A DNA stretch of 13,543 nucleotides, from assembly GCA_046597055.1 (NCBI GenBank), contig JBKJLC010000223.1, positions 1 to 13,543 on the forward strand, read 5' to 3'. The position numbers and the translations under genes are program-made. This DNA is from Kofleriaceae bacterium. Lineage in GTDB: Bacteria > Myxococcota_A > Polyangia > Haliangiales > Haliangiaceae. The notes beneath the pieces are model-generated. The model had not been told where the DNA came from, ran no database searches, and worked only from the letters and a program-made list of their open reading frames with translations. Below are positions 2,576 to 7,341 of the stretch, piece after piece (positions within the stretch are counted from its first letter, which is position 1; the number at the start of each line of letters is the position of its first letter).

Positions 2576-2614
2576 AAAGCGAAACGTGCCCACCTCCGGT
2601 CGGAGGCAGGCACG
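2576..2614 (-). terminator. Intrinsic terminator of the BlaI-M56-DsbA operon
   Basis: Minus strand CGTGCCTGCCTCC-GACC-GGAGGTGGGCACG (13-bp stem, two G-U pairs) followed by TTTCGCTTT, about 42 nt after the DsbA stop. Confidence 0.8.
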
Positions 2615-2656
2615 GTCACGGCCGCGGCTCGGGCTGGGCCCGACCCACGCGCGCGA

Positions 2657-3472
2657 TCACTTGACCGGGTCGAGCTTCTTGGCGCCCTTCTCGACCACCC
2701 ACGTCTTGTAGTAGCTCTCGCGCGGCGTGCCCTGCGCGACGCGCTCCTGGGCCTTCTTGAGCTCCTCGTCGATGATCGCCTTGAACGCCGGCAGCGGCTG
2801 GGCGCCCGACAGGAAGCGGCCATTGATGAAGAAGGCGGGCGTGGCGCCGACGCCGAAGTTGGTCAGGCTGGCCTGGTGCTTCTGCACCCACGGGGCGCAT
2901 TCGCCCTTGAGGTCGCTCTGGAACTTGGCCACGTCGACACCGGCCTCCTTGGCTGCGGCGATGATGTTGGCCTCCTCGAACTGGCGGGTCTTGAAGACCT
3001 TCTCCCACAGCGCCTCGTCGACCTCCTTGAACTTGCCCTGGCGGTGGGCAGCGCAGGTGGCCTGGGCCGGCAGGGTGGCCGTCTGCGGGTGGACGACGTA
3101 GGGCGCGTAGATCACGCGGACGTTGTCGCCGTAGTCCTTGTGGATCTGCTCGAGGGTCGGGCGGACCTTCTCGCAGAACGGGCAGGCGTACTCGTACGCC
3201 TTCACGATCGTGATCAGCGCGTCGGGGCGACCGATCGCGGGCATGTCGTCGACCGGGACCGCGTAGGTCTTGGCCGGGTCGGCGGCCGGGCGCTGCGGGC
3301 GCTGCTGGCCACCGGGGGCGCCGGCCGGGCGCTTCTCCAGGCGATCGAGGCGCTGGGCGATGTCGTCGAGCTTCTTGACGACTTCCTTGTTGTCCTGGGT
3401 GCAGCTGGTGAGGCCGCCGAGGGCGACCGCGCCGAGCGCGAGCGCGAGCGCGAAGGTGTTGTTCTTCATCAT
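2657..3472 (-). CDS. DsbA-family (BdbD/Com1-like) thiol-disulfide oxidoreductase, predicted lipoprotein
   Basis: Start at ATG 3472 (or 3469) with GAGGA RBS, overlapping the upstream stop (ATGATGA). Signal peptide with lipobox LTS-C, a short coiled coil, active site EYACPFC, cis-Pro loop GVGATPAFFING, LSGAQPLPAFKAIIDEEL, and two extra Cys (ATC, GEC) in the helical domain. Confidence 0.92.
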   Translation of the reverse strand: MMKNNTFALALALGAVALGGLTSCTQDNKEVVKKLDDIAQRLDRLEKRPAGAPGGQQRPQRPAADPAKTYAVPVDDMPAIGRPDALITIVKAYEYACPFCEKVRPTLEQIHKDYGDNVRVIYAPYVVHPQTATLPAQATCAAHRQGKFKEVDEALWEKVFKTRQFEEANIIAAAKEAGVDVAKFQSDLKGECAPWVQKHQASLTNFGVGATPAFFINGRFLSGAQPLPAFKAIIDEELKKAQERVAQGTPRESYYKTWVVEKGAKKLDPVK

Positions 3473-4836
3473 GGATCGGTTCCTCGAACGCAGGTGGGGA
3501 TAGCGGAACGGACCGTCACCGGGTCGGCGGCGGCAAGGGTGGAAGTGGCCCCGCCTGCGGCGGGGTCGGGACAATTACAGCAGAGGTCCTCGGACGCAAG
3601 GGCCGACGCCAGCGTGGGGCCGGCCGCGCTGGCATCGAGCGCGAGGTCGCTCTGGGCGGGTGAGGTCAGCGCGTCGTCGCCGTGGCGGCGGCGCAGCGCG
3701 AGCTGGTACTCGCAGACCTCGTCGTGCGACAGCGCGCCGTCACCATCGGCATCGGCCGCGGGATGGGCGGCCATGATCGACGTCGCCACGTCGGGCGTGA
3801 ACAGGCACACGCGCGGGCCGGTCGCCGCCGGCGGCGCCGACGACGCGGCGCCGGTCAGGCCGACCAGCGCCCAGCCACCGACCAGCGCCATGCCCGGCCG
3901 GCCGAGCCCGGGCCGCGCGGTGCGCGCCGGATGCGCGACCAGCGCGTCGACCCGGCGCCGCAGGGTGCCGGGCCGGGCCAGCGCGAGCGCGGCGGTCGGC
4001 GCGTCGAGGCGCGCGCGCGCGACCTCGACCAGCATGCGGGCGTAGGCGGCGGCGCCGAGCGGACCGATCGCGATCGCGTAGGCGTCGCACGCCTGCTCGC
4101 GGGCGAGATCGAGGCGCCGGTTGACCCAGCGCACCACCGGCCAGAAGAAGAAGGCGGTCGCGGCGACGACCTGCACCACCCGCAGCGCGGCGTCCCCGCG
4201 GCGGACGTGGGCGAGCTCGTGCGCCAGCGCGGCGCGGCGCGCGTCGGCGCGGTCGCCGGCCAGCGCGGTGGCGGGCACCACCACGATCGGCGCGCGGAAG
4301 CCGACCAGGTACGGCGTGGCCTCGCCCGCGGCGACCCGGACCTCGATCGCGCCGCGCACGCCGATGCGCGCCGCCAGCGCCGCGACCTCGCCGACCAGCC
4401 AGTCCGGGGCCGGCGCGGCCTGCCGGGCCTGGGCGCGGGCCCGACCGGCGGCGCGCAGCTGGCGCGCCGCGACCACCGATGCGCCCGCCAGCCACAGGCC
4501 GAGCACCGCGAGCGTGCCCCACGCAACCGGCGGGGCGGCCGGGGCGGTCGGGACCGCCAGCGCCGACGGCCCGGTGACCACGATCGGCTCGGCGGCGGTG
4601 TCGCCGTCGCGCAGACTGTCGACCAGCGACGCCAGCGAGAACCGCGCGCCGGGCCCGACCGGGACCAGAAACTTGAGCAGGACCACCGTCCACAGCGCCG
4701 CGATCACGCCAGGCCGGGCGCGGCGCAGCACGGTCGCGGACAGCGCGAGCGCGATCATCGCGAGCAGGGTGCCGTGCAGGAGGGCGGCGCCGAGCACCCC
4801 GAGCACGCCGTCGAGGCCGGCAGCGAGCGCGGTCAC
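3469..4836 (-). CDS. M56 family (BlaR1/MecR1-like) membrane metallopeptidase with Cys-rich EF-hand C-terminal domain
   Basis: Three N-terminal TM segments, PYLVGFRAPIVVVP, zinc motif LAHELAHVRRGD, FFWPVVRWVNRRLDLAREQACD, LRRRV, a further TM, then the DADGDGALSHDE EF-hand loop. The GTG start overlaps the repressor stop (GTGA). Confidence 0.92.
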   Translation of the reverse strand: MTALAAGLDGVLGVLGAALLHGTLLAMIALALSATVLRRARPGVIAALWTVVLLKFLVPVGPGARFSLASLVDSLRDGDTAAEPIVVTGPSALAVPTAPAAPPVAWGTLAVLGLWLAGASVVAARQLRAAGRARAQARQAAPAPDWLVGEVAALAARIGVRGAIEVRVAAGEATPYLVGFRAPIVVVPATALAGDRADARRAALAHELAHVRRGDAALRVVQVVAATAFFFWPVVRWVNRRLDLAREQACDAYAIAIGPLGAAAYARMLVEVARARLDAPTAALALARPGTLRRRVDALVAHPARTARPGLGRPGMALVGGWALVGLTGAASSAPPAATGPRVCLFTPDVATSIMAAHPAADADGDGALSHDEVCEYQLALRRRHGDDALTSPAQSDLALDASAAGPTLASALASEDLCCNCPDPAAGGATSTLAAADPVTVRSAIPTCVRGTDP

Positions 4837-5372
4837 GACCGGGCCTTCTTGCGGCGCGGCTCGGCCGCCGGTTGGGCCGCCGCGACCGGCGCCTCAGCCG
4901 TGGCAGCTGGCGCCGCCGGCGCACGCTCGTCGATCCCACGGGGGGCCCTGCCCCCCGCCCCACCAGCGGAGCTGGCAGGGCCCCCACCCTCCGTCTCCTC
5001 GCTGCGCTCGTCGATCCGCCGCTCGATGTCGCGGAGCTCGTCGAGCGACAGCGACTCGTCCTCGACCAGACCGAGCACCATCGCATCGGCCTCGCCATCG
5101 AAGACGTCGTGCAGGAACGCGCGCAGCCGCTCCTTCAGCACCGACTCACGCTGGAACGCCGGCTGGTACACGAACGGCTCGCGGTCGCGATCGACATTGA
5201 CCGCGCCCTTGCCGGCCAGGCGCCCCAGCAGCGTCATGACCGTGGTGTACGCCAGCTCGCCGCCCTTCTTGTTGAGCTCCGCGCGCGCCTCGGCCACGGT
5301 GGCCTTGCCTAGATTCCACAGCACCTTCATGAGGTTGAACTCGGCGGGCGTGAGGTCGGGGGCGCGGGACAT
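4833..5372 (-). CDS. BlaI/MecI/CopY family transcriptional repressor
   Basis: LTPAEFNLMKVLW...ATVAE...LAYTTVMTLLGRLAGKG winged HTH and FLHDVFDG...LSLDEL dimerisation domain. AGGA RBS 6 nt before the ATG. Low-complexity C-terminal tail. Confidence 0.95.
   Translation of the reverse strand: MSRAPDLTPAEFNLMKVLWNLGKATVAEARAELNKKGGELAYTTVMTLLGRLAGKGAVNVDRDREPFVYQPAFQRESVLKERLRAFLHDVFDGEADAMVLGLVEDESLSLDELRDIERRIDERSEETEGGGPASSAGGAGGRAPRGIDERAPAAPAATAEAPVAAAQPAAEPRRKKARS
4924..5017. repeat. Palindromic element inserted in frame in the repressor gene, flanked by 13-bp direct repeats
   Basis: CGCTCGTCGATCC at 4924-4936 and 5005-5017 (81-bp period). Between them, a perfect 12-bp inverted repeat GGGGGCCCTGCC (4941-4952) / GGCAGGGCCCCC (4974-4985). 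Confidence 0.7.
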
Positions 5373-5406
5373 CGGGCTTCCTGGTGCGGTTCCTACTGGC
5401 CTCGTA

Positions 5407-5436
5407 TTGCTACTACGAGTGTAGTTTGAAGGTCAA
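5407..5436 (-). promoter_or_regulatory. Candidate sigma-70 promoter of the BlaI-M56-DsbA operon
   Basis: Minus strand TTGACC (5436-5431), 18-nt spacer, TAGCAA (5412-5407), in a locally AT-rich patch. The -10 is imperfect. Confidence 0.55.
5412..5425. promoter_or_regulatory. BlaI/MecI-type operator palindrome ACTAC-GAGT-GTAGT
   Basis: One mismatch to the established TACA-NN-TGTA BlaI/MecI/CopY box; lies 40 nt upstream of the repressor ATG, between its candidate -35 and -10. Confidence 0.8.
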
Positions 5437-5511: not shown

Positions 5512-6126
5512 ATGCGTCTGTACCAGGATTCCCGCGCGCCCAATCCCCGCCGCGTTCGCATCTTCCTCGCCGAGAAGAACCTGACCAGCGCGGTCGAGCT
5601 GGTCGACGTCAGCATCAACGCCGGCGCCCACCAGTCGCCCGAGCACCTCGCGCGCCACCCGCTCGGGCTGGTGCCGGTGCTCGAGCTCGACGACGGCCGG
5701 CTCCTGCGCGAGTCGATCGCGATCTGCCGCTACCTCGAGGAGCTGTACCCGCAGCCGGCGCTGTTCGGCACCGACCCGTGGTCGCGCGCGACCATCGAGC
5801 AGTGGGACCGCCTCGCCGAGCTCGAGATCCTGGGGCCGGTCGCGCAGGTGTTCCGCAACAGCCACGCGTTCTGGGAGGGCCGCATCAAGCAGAGCCCCGA
5901 GTTCGCCGAGATCACGCGCGAGCGCCTGCAGGAGCGGTTCACCTGGCTCGACGGCGAGCTCGCCGGCCGCCGGTTCCTGGCCGGCGACACCTTCTCGGTC
6001 GCCGACATCACCGCGCTGTGCGCGCTCGACTTCGCCAAGGTCTCCGGCATCCGGGTCGGCGACGCCACCCCGCACCTCAAGCGCTGGCACGCCGAGATGT
6101 CGGCCCGGCCGACTGCCAAGGCCTGA
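5512..6126 (+). CDS. Glutathione S-transferase family protein (Gtt2-like)
   Basis: APNPRRVRIFLAEK N-terminus, HPLGLVPVLELDDG (cis-Pro), ESIAICRYLEE, FLAGDTFSVADITA N-capping box; 204 aa. Confidence 0.95.
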   Translation: MRLYQDSRAPNPRRVRIFLAEKNLTSAVELVDVSINAGAHQSPEHLARHPLGLVPVLELDDGRLLRESIAICRYLEELYPQPALFGTDPWSRATIEQWDRLAELEILGPVAQVFRNSHAFWEGRIKQSPEFAEITRERLQERFTWLDGELAGRRFLAGDTFSVADITALCALDFAKVSGIRVGDATPHLKRWHAEMSARPTAKA

Positions 6127-6165
6127 CCGGCACGACCAGCCGGCGGCGCGCAGCGCCCGGTCAGG
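6122..6165. terminator. Inverted repeat between convergent GST and membrane-protein genes (possible bidirectional terminator)
   Basis: CCTGACCGG (6122-6130) / CCGGTCAGG (6157-6165) include both stop codons; internal GGCGC-GCA-GCGCC hairpin; no U-tract. Confidence 0.35.
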
Positions 6166-7282
6166 ACCGGACGACCGCGCGCGGCAGCGGCTGCGGCCCG
6201 GCTGCCTTCTTCGCGCGGCGCCTGGCCAGGGCAGGCGGGATGCTGAGGAAGCCGATCGCCGCGATGATGAGGCCGGCGCCCACGATCTCGTCGGTCGACA
6301 GCGGCCCGTAGCCGGCGAAGAGCGCGCCCAGGATCACCGAGCCGACGATGCCGGCGAGCACGCTCGACGCCCGGTTGACCGGGACGCAGAAGGTGTTCTC
6401 GTTCTTGTCGAGCAGGATCAGTCCGCCGAAGATCCCGGTGCACTGCGACAGCACGCCGATGACGAGCGCGTACGGCACCACCGGCCGATCCCAGAACGTG
6501 GTGAACCCGGCCCGCATCGACGCGCCGAACTCGCCGCCGGCGAACAGCGCGGCCAGGCCGAGCAGCAGGAGCAGCACCGGCCCCGAGGTCATGCCCTCCT
6601 CGACGAAGTAGCGCAGGTTGGCGTTGCTGTCGGCCGACTTCGCCAGCTTGCTCATCAGCGACAGCCGCACGAAGTAGAAGCCGAGATAGAGGAGGACGTC
6701 GATCGCGCACGCGGTCGTGAGCAGGGTCGAGCCACCCCCGAGGAACGCCGCGAGGAGCGAGCCGATCGACAGCAGCAGCGCGACCAGCGAGAACCAGCGC
6801 ACGTGGCGGCCCGCGAACGCGTCGACCACCGGCGCCAGCACCAGCAGGCCGCCGCGCATGAGGAGCATGACGAACACGATGCTGACGTCGACGAACGTGT
6901 AGGCCAGCGTGGTGGTCGCGATGATGCCAGACGTGCACACGCCCGAGAGGAACGTCAGCTTCTGCGGCATCGGCACCGACACGCCGAGCACGCGCCGCCG
7001 CCCGGCGTGGCGCCACCAGCCGGTCGCCAGCAGGAACACCACCAGGGTCGCGACCGTGGCGGTCACCGTCGGCGGCAGCATCTCGAGCCCGTCGATGCCG
7101 GGGTCCCTGGCCGGCGCGACCTGCGGGATCCCGTCGCTGTCGATCAGGCCCTTGGAGACGACCTTGGTCAAGGCGGCGAAGGGGACGTAGCAGGCGAAGT
7201 AGCCAAACGCCCACCACCAGATCGAAGGTCCGCTCGCGGAATGGGTCGTCGCCGCCGCCACTGGCTTGAGAATGTCACTCAC
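6161..7282 (-). CDS. Uncharacterised polytopic membrane protein, DMT/EamA-superfamily-like
   Basis: About 10 hydrophobic segments in two halves, with DMT-like features (LAYTFVDVSIVFVMLLMRGGLLVLAPVV; EIVGAGLIIAAIGFL). Start uncertain: GTG 7282 preferred, GTG 7300 in the ORF track. Confidence 0.7.
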   Translation of the reverse strand: MSDILKPVAAATTHSASGPSIWWWAFGYFACYVPFAALTKVVSKGLIDSDGIPQVAPARDPGIDGLEMLPPTVTATVATLVVFLLATGWWRHAGRRRVLGVSVPMPQKLTFLSGVCTSGIIATTTLAYTFVDVSIVFVMLLMRGGLLVLAPVVDAFAGRHVRWFSLVALLLSIGSLLAAFLGGGSTLLTTACAIDVLLYLGFYFVRLSLMSKLAKSADSNANLRYFVEEGMTSGPVLLLLLGLAALFAGGEFGASMRAGFTTFWDRPVVPYALVIGVLSQCTGIFGGLILLDKNENTFCVPVNRASSVLAGIVGSVILGALFAGYGPLSTDEIVGAGLIIAAIGFLSIPPALARRRAKKAAGPQPLPRAVVRS

Positions 7283-7341
7283 GCGCCATCTTGTCGCCAC
7301 ATTTGACAGGAGTGCCAGCTCGCGCCGTCAGGTTCCGCACC

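What the first reader, a model, noticed from the sequence alone, without database searches (positions are those of the whole stretch)
2576..5436. Self-contained BlaI-BlaR1-like circuit controlling a DsbA lipoprotein: candidate periplasmic disulfide-homeostasis sensor system
Seen: three genes joined by GTGA (4833-4836) and ATGATGA (3466-3472) overlaps, a BlaI-type operator in the promoter, and a strong terminator right after the third gene, so the unit is exactly repressor + M56 peptidase + DsbA. Known: in BlaI/BlaR1 systems, sensor activation leads to repressor inactivation and induction of a beta-lactamase or PBP2a. Here no beta-lactamase or penicillin-binding domain is present; the cargo is a disulfide oxidoreductase and the sensor is Cys-rich. 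Inference: the sensor's own disulfide state may report Dsb capacity, so a reduced or mis-oxidised sensor derepresses dsbA (negative feedback). I know of no described system of this kind, but cannot exclude one.
Basis: partly seen in the sequence, partly recalled or inferred. Interest (0 to 1): 0.82.

Follow-up and report, generated by a model that had tools for sequence, protein, structure and literature searches.

The report
Cysteine-sensor protease switch for DsbA
A family of myxobacteria keeps a repressor and membrane protease of the penicillin-sensing BlaI/BlaR1 type, whose outer sensor is a cysteine-flanked calcium-binding-type loop and whose predicted DNA binding site sits before disulfide- and thiol-handling genes, so it likely reports the state of disulfide bonds in the cell envelope.

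Summary
blaI (PF03965), an M56 protease (PF05569) and a DsbA-family lipoprotein (PF13462) form an overlapping operon with an ACTAC-N4-GTAGT palindrome in front and a terminator behind. It is conserved: the sensor is in 100 of 117 sampled family genomes (Kofleriaceae), and dsbA follows it in 38 of 41 readable loci. In the 3 exceptions the relocated dsbA carries its own operator. The sensor's outer domain has an EF-hand between two invariant Cys (88 of 88) and an even Cys count in 85 of 88. New here: the operator defines a thiol-redox regulon. 35 of 47 other exact sites precede gpmI-tlpA (also in this genome), yceI, a bacillithiol operon or dsbA paralogues; none precedes a recognised copper or beta-lactam gene. 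A RegB/RegA-like pair follows dsbA in 20 of 41 loci, so 'exactly three genes' is not family-wide. Best reading: loss of the sensor's disulfides activates BlaI cleavage (0.6; untested). Copper, calcium or general envelope stress remain rivals. The scan noted BlaI/M56-DsbA circuits earlier on other DNA (mostly CPR bacteria), none listed with this sensor. New variant of a known kind; closest are BlaR1/BlaI and PetRP.

The parts
5431..5436 (-). Putative -35 hexamer TTGACC
   Evidence: Sequence; TTGAC or TTGC at the same place in many orthologous promoters; not found by the consensus scan
5411..5426 (.). BlaI-type operator palindrome, core ACTAC-N4-GTAGT at 5412-5425, between the -35 and the start codon
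   Evidence: Exact core before blaI in 57 genomes read; best of two strong sites in the genome
4833..5372 (-). blaI-like repressor, 179 aa, no Cys, low-complexity C-terminal tail
   Evidence: PF03965 E=4.2e-26; below NCBIfam BlaI, MecI and CopY cut-offs; 0 Cys
3469..4836 (-). BlaR1-like M56 membrane zinc protease, 455 aa
   Evidence: PF05569 E=1.1e-28; model pLDDT 80.8; top five Foldseek rows are S. aureus BlaR1, best E=1.7e-3
4084..4221 (-). Gluzincin motifs H206ELAH210 and E247xxxD251
   Evidence: H206, E207, H210, E247, D251 invariant in 88 sequences; same 41-residue spacing as BlaR1 H201/E242 (PMC9834060)
3469..3834 (-). Predicted periplasmic sensor domain: C344, EF-hand loop D362-E373, C375, then C419-C420-x-C422 and C449
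   Evidence: topology inferred from BlaR1 and from charge bias
2657..3472 (-). DsbA-family lipoprotein: lipobox Cys24, N-terminal helix, CPFC, Thr-cisPro (T211-P212), second Cys pair C140/C192
   Evidence: PF13462 E=7e-20; invariant columns in 39 sequences; PDB relatives include DsbA, ScsC and BdbD
2585..2614 (-). Intrinsic terminator-like hairpin
   Evidence: 13 pairs, 9 G-C, T-rich tail
5512..6126 (+). Divergent glutathione S-transferase gene, 86 nt from the operator core; co-regulation possible but untested, neighbour only within this genus

Best explanation
This is a conserved blaI-M56 protease-dsbA operon of Kofleriaceae in which the repressor likely binds ACTAC-N4-GTAGT, and the protease likely cleaves it when disulfides in its predicted periplasmic Cys/EF-hand domain are lost or scrambled, which would induce DsbA and other thiol-redox genes. 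Shown: gene identities, intact catalytic motifs, synteny, Cys conservation, and where the palindrome lies. Inferred from BlaR1 and PetP: BlaI binding and direct cleavage (about 0.9). Inferred from Cys parity and the target list: the signal is envelope thiol-disulfide state (about 0.6). Least certain: the direction. I commit to 'correctly oxidised, Ca-stabilised domain = off; reduced or mis-paired = on', with the induced DsbA restoring the sensor and closing a negative loop.
For: dsbA follows the sensor in 38 of 41 loci while outer neighbours change. In the 3 exceptions (G021, G034, G063) the best dsbA match lies elsewhere with an operator 18-31 nt upstream: exact in two, one mismatch in G034. 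The 10 other dsbA paralogue loci checked in G021, G034, G063, G069 and G031, apart from the tandem copies next to those genes, had no match within 2 mismatches. Of 47 exact non-blaI sites read, 35 precede four classes: gpmI-tlpA 10, yceI 12, DUF2911-bshC operon 7, dsbA 6 (identities). These targets differ by genus, which suggests separate gains with one theme (inference). C344 and C375 are in 88 of 88 sequences; the outer domain has 4 Cys in 30, 6 in 55 and 5 in 3. Acidobacterial homologues have EF-hands and a similar palindrome but lack these Cys and an adjacent dsbA. A RegB-like kinase with GGxxNPF (5 of 5 checked) follows in 20 of 41 loci. Precedent for DsbA-read periplasmic Cys sensors: CSS-domain phosphodiesterases (PMC13712737, abstract).
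Against: No experiment. Paired Cys may be purely structural. The first gene behind the operator is gpmI (glycolysis) in this genus and DUF2911 in the bacillithiol operon, so the thiol genes are second in line; gpmI-tlpA is an older operon that lacks the site in 12 of 12 other-genus genomes. YceI is not a thiol enzyme. 12 of 47 sites fit no class (4 other genes, 3 no gene, 5 inside ORFs). The targets mix an oxidase-like protein with reducing systems, so direction is unclear. G012 has the gpmI site but no sensor match (92% complete). The EF-hand is as conserved as the Cys. The Cys-rich tail is poorly modelled (pLDDT 35-56) and Cys-Cys distances could not be read. Kin are not independent.
Confidence: 0.6

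Rival explanations
1. Copper (or other thiophilic metal) sensor like PetRP: metal bound to the CCxC cluster activates the protease, and the DsbA-family protein, TlpA and bacillithiol repair or buffer metal damage.
For: PetP degrades PetR in a copper-dependent way (10.1101/2020.07.31.226407). The cargo resembles ScsC proteins, which counter copper (PMC8900818). The CCxC motif is present.
Against: No copper pump, oxidase or chaperone was recognised behind the 47 sites. Outer domain His 1.3% and Met 1.4%; Cys count varies in steps of two; CCxC is the variable part. A second, short BlaI/M56 pair precedes a metal-type RND efflux operon in this genome.
Confidence: 0.13
2. General envelope or folding-stress sensor, or a sensor of an unknown ligand. 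The Cys are structural disulfides, and dsbA is co-expressed partly to fold the sensor.
For: Most M56 sensors have unknown signals; only about 6% carry a transpeptidase domain (PMC13492132 section 12). A 3D-domain (cell-wall) gene is divergent in several genera. YceI and lipoproteins are envelope proteins.
Against: Relocated dsbA keeps an operator. Cytoplasmic bacillithiol genes are not needed to fold the sensor. The divergent neighbour varies between genera.
Confidence: 0.17
3. Calcium sensor: the EF-hand is the input and the Cys staple it.
For: D362, D364, D366, G367 and E373 are almost invariant. EF-hands persist in Cys-less Acidobacterial homologues.
Against: No calcium-related target was recognised among the operator sites. 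The Cys-plus-EF form, not the EF-only form, goes with dsbA in the loci seen.
Confidence: 0.1

Closest known systems
BlaR1/BlaI and MecR1/MecI of Staphylococcus aureus (PMC9834060, passages read)
   Same: BlaI-family repressor, M56 gluzincin with HExxH and ExxxD at the same spacing, top structural match, palindromic operator, autoregulated operon.
   Different: No penicillin-binding domain and no beta-lactamase or PBP2a target; Cys/EF-hand sensor; repressor gene first; below all NCBIfam cut-offs.
PetR/PetP of Synechocystis (10.1101/2020.07.31.226407, abstract and Discussion read)
   Same: Non-beta-lactam BlaI/BlaR pair, small regulon, protease-controlled repressor.
   Different: PetP lacks a C-terminal outer domain and is proposed to use loop Met residues for copper; the motif is GAC-N5-GTC; the targets are electron carriers.
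CenIR of Clostridioides difficile (PMC13492132, passages and one section) and PvmSR of Pseudomonas aeruginosa (10.64898/2026.08.03.742534, abstract)
   Same: Atypical BlaIR pairs without a transpeptidase domain.
   Different: CenIR's signal was not identified and its targets are envelope genes; PvmSR affects virulence genes. 'Disulfide' and 'EF-hand' do not occur in the CenIR text.
CSS-domain phosphodiesterases PdeB/C/G of E. coli (PMC13712737, abstract); PhoQ-MgrB-DsbA link (PMC11825808, passages)
   Same: A periplasmic Cys pair, set by DsbA/DsbB, controls a cytoplasmic output.
   Different: Different folds and outputs (c-di-GMP, phosphorelay), not a protease switch whose main target is dsbA.
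ScsC, BdbD and related DsbA-like oxidoreductases (PMC8900818, passages)
   Same: CxxC plus Thr-cisPro thioredoxin fold with an N-terminal helical extension.
   Different: Lipoprotein with an extra C140/C192 pair; oligomer state and activity are unknown.

Membership tests
BlaI/BlaR (M56) regulatory pairs, broad | PF03965 repressor adjacent to a PF05569 membrane protease | tested here: met
   both over Pfam cut-offs, genes overlap
BlaI/BlaR (M56) regulatory pairs, broad | Gluzincin HExxH plus ExxxD | tested here: met
   Invariant in 88 sequences; spacing as in BlaR1
BlaI/BlaR (M56) regulatory pairs, broad | Palindromic operator upstream of its own operon | tested here: met
   (sequence only; binding not shown)
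BlaI/BlaR (M56) regulatory pairs, broad | Protease cleaves the repressor on signal | not testable with these tools
   Needs an immunoblot or in vitro assay
Canonical beta-lactam BlaR1/MecR1 | C-terminal penicillin-binding domain and a beta-lactamase or PBP target | tested here: not met
   No such Pfam hit; NF000326 34 bits against a cut-off of 400; no such target seen
CopY/TcrY copper repressors | C-terminal Cys metal site in the repressor (recalled) and NCBIfam cut-off | tested here: not met
   0 Cys; TIGR02698 60 bits against 122
PetRP | No C-terminal outer domain; GAC-N5-GTC motif; petE/petJ targets | tested here: not met
   About 120-aa outer domain, different motif and targets
PetRP | Copper-dependent repressor degradation | not testable with these tools
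   Needs an experiment
DsbA-like thioredoxin-fold oxidoreductase | CxxC, cis-Pro loop, export signal | tested here: met
Trimeric ScsC-type isomerase | Trimer formed by N-terminal helices; isomerase activity | tested here: inconclusive
   N-terminal helix-like segment seen in the sequences; oligomer state and activity remain open

The most novel reading that the evidence does not exclude
A dedicated envelope 'disulfide thermostat': a BlaR1-type protease whose Cys-stapled EF-hand is itself a DsbA substrate, and which runs a thiol-redox regulon (DsbA, TlpA, YceI, bacillithiol, RegBA-like) across a whole myxobacterial family. It would be a defined redox signal for the large class of M56 sensors without a known ligand.
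Probability: 0.55. Interest if true: 0.82.

Novelty: new variant of a known kind. Interest (0 to 1): 0.66.

Why it matters
Only about 6% of roughly 15,000 M56 proteins carry the beta-lactam-binding domain (PMC13492132); among the papers read here, the only signal shown for one of the others is copper for PetP. This family gives a short operator, a coherent target list and a small sensor with countable Cys, so the signal can be tested directly, probably in E. coli dsb mutants since PetP worked in E. coli extracts. If true, it is a simple feedback loop by which a cell measures its own disulfide-forming capacity, and a possible genetically encoded periplasmic redox reporter.

Tried and rejected
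Complex prediction of three DsbA copies returned no verdict (score 0.25, mark 0.42); it is not used for or against a trimer. The Atlas search of the sensor domain gave only scores of 0.76 or less. Foldseek gave no row at E<=0.001. The consensus promoter scan found nothing. Weak operator-like sites in this genome (16.4 bits and lower, for example before a His-first exported protein on C66 and an ABC transporter on C238) were set aside as likely chance; their conservation was not tested. No operator was found before this genome's yceI, regB, 3D-domain or HTTM genes, and bshC, bshB1 and DUF2911 gave no tblastn hit at 1e-10. DsbB (PF02600) was not found; a DsbD/CcdA-type gene and a VKOR-like/DsbA fusion (by eye) are present. 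Loose W-ended patterns gave as many control hits as real hits in several genomes, so counts use the strict pattern only. An ACTACC-NN-GGTAGT variant, frequent in one genus, was left out; it may belong to other BlaI paralogues (not tested). Rows corrected by hand: the G019, G021 and G090 sites are blaI sites my gene caller missed, and one G004 row is a duplicate. Literature searches listed no paper on a BlaI/M56 pair controlling dsbA; the library covers open-licence papers only and supplements were not read.
Full report
1. Observation. Pfam gives Penicillinase_R (4.2e-26), Peptidase_M56 (1.1e-28) and Thioredoxin_4/DSBA (7e-20). All three score below the NCBIfam cut-offs of the named BlaI, MecI, CopY, BlaR1 and DsbA families. 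Record titles of the closest loci name Kofleriaceae or Myxococcales. The genome is 8.38 Mb and 94% complete, with two BlaI/M56 pairs and seven Thioredoxin_4 matches.

2. The sensor. H206ELAH210 and E247xxxD251 are invariant in 88 aligned homologues, with the same spacing as H201/E242 of BlaR1 (PMC9834060, passages). The model (pLDDT 80.8) ranks BlaR1 structures first, although the best E is only 1.7e-3. BlaR1's last membrane helix leads to an outer domain. Here the helix at 312-327 is preceded by 3.7 Lys/Arg on average and followed by 1.7, so the C-terminal 120 residues are inferred to be periplasmic. They hold an EF-hand loop (D362-E373) between C344 and C375, each in 88 of 88. The 88 were chosen from the top 95 hits by leaving out five long forms without the Cys-flanked EF-hand, one truncated and one near-duplicate sequence; in all 95 the counts are 91 and 90. 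The domain has 4 Cys in 30 sequences, 6 in 55 and 5 in 3, and little His or Met. That fits disulfide pairs better than a fixed metal site (inference). Acidobacterial relatives keep EF-hands and a similar palindrome but lack these Cys and an adjacent dsbA. An Ala-x-Ala stretch follows the last helix in many homologues (by eye); BlaR1's sensor is shed by signal peptidase, so shedding is possible here but untested.

3. Distribution and synteny. The profile finds the sensor in 100 of 117 family genomes and 0 of 7 from other families of the order (the tally includes unpublished G098 as a hit and G103 as a miss). It finds none in 148 other-family genomes of the phylum at E<=1e-35, with 11 candidates scored per genome. 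dsbA follows the sensor in 38 of 41 loci with readable downstream DNA, and a RegB-like kinase follows in 20 of 41. The kinase and regulator match the ActS/PrrB/RegB and ActR/PrrA/RegA models below cut-off; GGxxNPF is present in 5 of 5 checked (its quinone role is recalled). Outer neighbours vary: GST and gltX in this genus, 3D-domain or HTTM genes elsewhere.

4. Operator and regulon. ACTAC-N4-GTAGT stands before blaI in 57 genomes read, with a variable centre. This genome has two exact sites in 8.37 Mb. The second lies about 55 nt before gpmI, which overlaps a TlpA/ResA-like CPPC lipoprotein gene. I read the fully listed strict sites of 70 genomes (two blaI sites were judged by coordinates and not fetched) plus those shown for six more, whose list was cut at 150 rows. 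Of 47 non-blaI sites, 10 precede gpmI, 12 yceI genes, 7 DUF2911-bshC (bshB1 seen in 2, bshA in 1 where the locus reached), and 6 stand-alone dsbA genes. Four precede other genes, 3 no gene, and 5 lie inside ORFs by my crude gene caller. G002, G005 and G015 have near-exact gpmI sites; 12 of 12 other-genus gpmI promoters and 11 of 11 further yceI promoters have none within two mismatches. The core (blaI, sensor, dsbA) is therefore constant and the periphery is lineage-specific. In nine scanned genomes with no sensor match, the four strict sites were all inside ORFs; G012 has a gpmI site but no sensor match. The strongest natural test: in G021, G034 and G063 dsbA is not beside the sensor, and the best dsbA match elsewhere has the operator just upstream.

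5. The cargo. A lipoprotein with CPFC, Thr-cisPro, a conserved C140/C192 pair and an N-terminal helix-like segment. PDB relatives include DsbA, ScsC and BdbD. Such proteins can be monomers or trimeric isomerases (PMC8900818, passages). Its oligomer state and activity remain open. The genome has a DsbD/CcdA-type gene and a VKOR-like fusion (by eye); DsbB was not found.

6. Mechanism. Likely: BlaI represses its operon and one or two others. The sensor is off while its outer disulfides are intact. When envelope thiol chemistry fails, the protease cleaves BlaI; DsbA, TlpA, YceI and in some genera bacillithiol synthesis and a RegBA-like pair rise; the sensor is restored. Repression and cleavage are inferred from BlaR1 and PetP. 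The signal is inferred from Cys pairing and the targets (0.6). The direction is a commitment by analogy with PdeB/C/G, which are more active without their periplasmic disulfide (PMC13712737, abstract). Against it: gpmI and DUF2911 come first in two operons, YceI is not a thiol enzyme, and the EF-hand is equally conserved. Rivals: general envelope stress 0.17, copper 0.13, calcium 0.10.

7. Known and new. It is a member of the broad BlaI/M56 class and fails membership of canonical BlaR1, CopY and PetRP. Non-canonical pairs are the rule (PMC13492132, section 12). Nine literature searches (listings only) showed no paper on such a pair controlling dsbA. The scan's own unchecked notes report BlaI/M56 pairs tied to DsbA on other DNA, mostly CPR bacteria, some with four outer Cys and often with copper genes. 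Those notes gave me two papers and are not counted as support. Verdict: real, conserved, new variant of a known kind, signal testable; interest 0.66.

Noticed in passing
L181:1504-2304, L182:1459-2277, L185:300-1103, L186:1450-2295, L192:1480-2352, L195:1477-2349: DsbA paralogues in two genera have an in-frame TGA exactly at the first active-site Cys (x-P-F/H/Y-C), likely selenocysteine. In G021 such a copy sits directly before the operator-controlled Cys copy; G034 has the same tandem layout. SECIS not checked.
   Followed up: partly
L059:4298-11000 (G000 C41): Second, short BlaI/M56 pair heading an outer-membrane factor, CzcB/CusB-like adaptor and probable RND gene; no match to this operator upstream; candidate metal sensor.
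   Followed up: partly
L111:853-1541 (G008): An exact site plus neighbouring ACTAC repeats upstream of an ECF-sigma-like gene (by eye); seen in one genome only.
   Followed up: no
L214 region and rows for G031, G063, G069: About a dozen ACTAC-N4-GTAGT matches per genome, mostly the ACTACC-NN-GGTAGT variant and often tandem 14 nt apart, in one genus with several other M56 paralogues: possibly a second BlaI regulon.
   Followed up: no
L078:2164-3090 (G088): Lipoprotein with no Pfam hit directly behind an exact operator.
   Followed up: no
window 6164-7300 (-): 379-aa membrane protein with no Pfam hit at E<=0.01, conserved near this locus within the genus.
   Followed up: no
L044:9534-10208: A DUF2911 gene lies about 3 kb from the Cys-less Acidobacterial EF-hand M56 locus; may be chance.
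   Followed up: no
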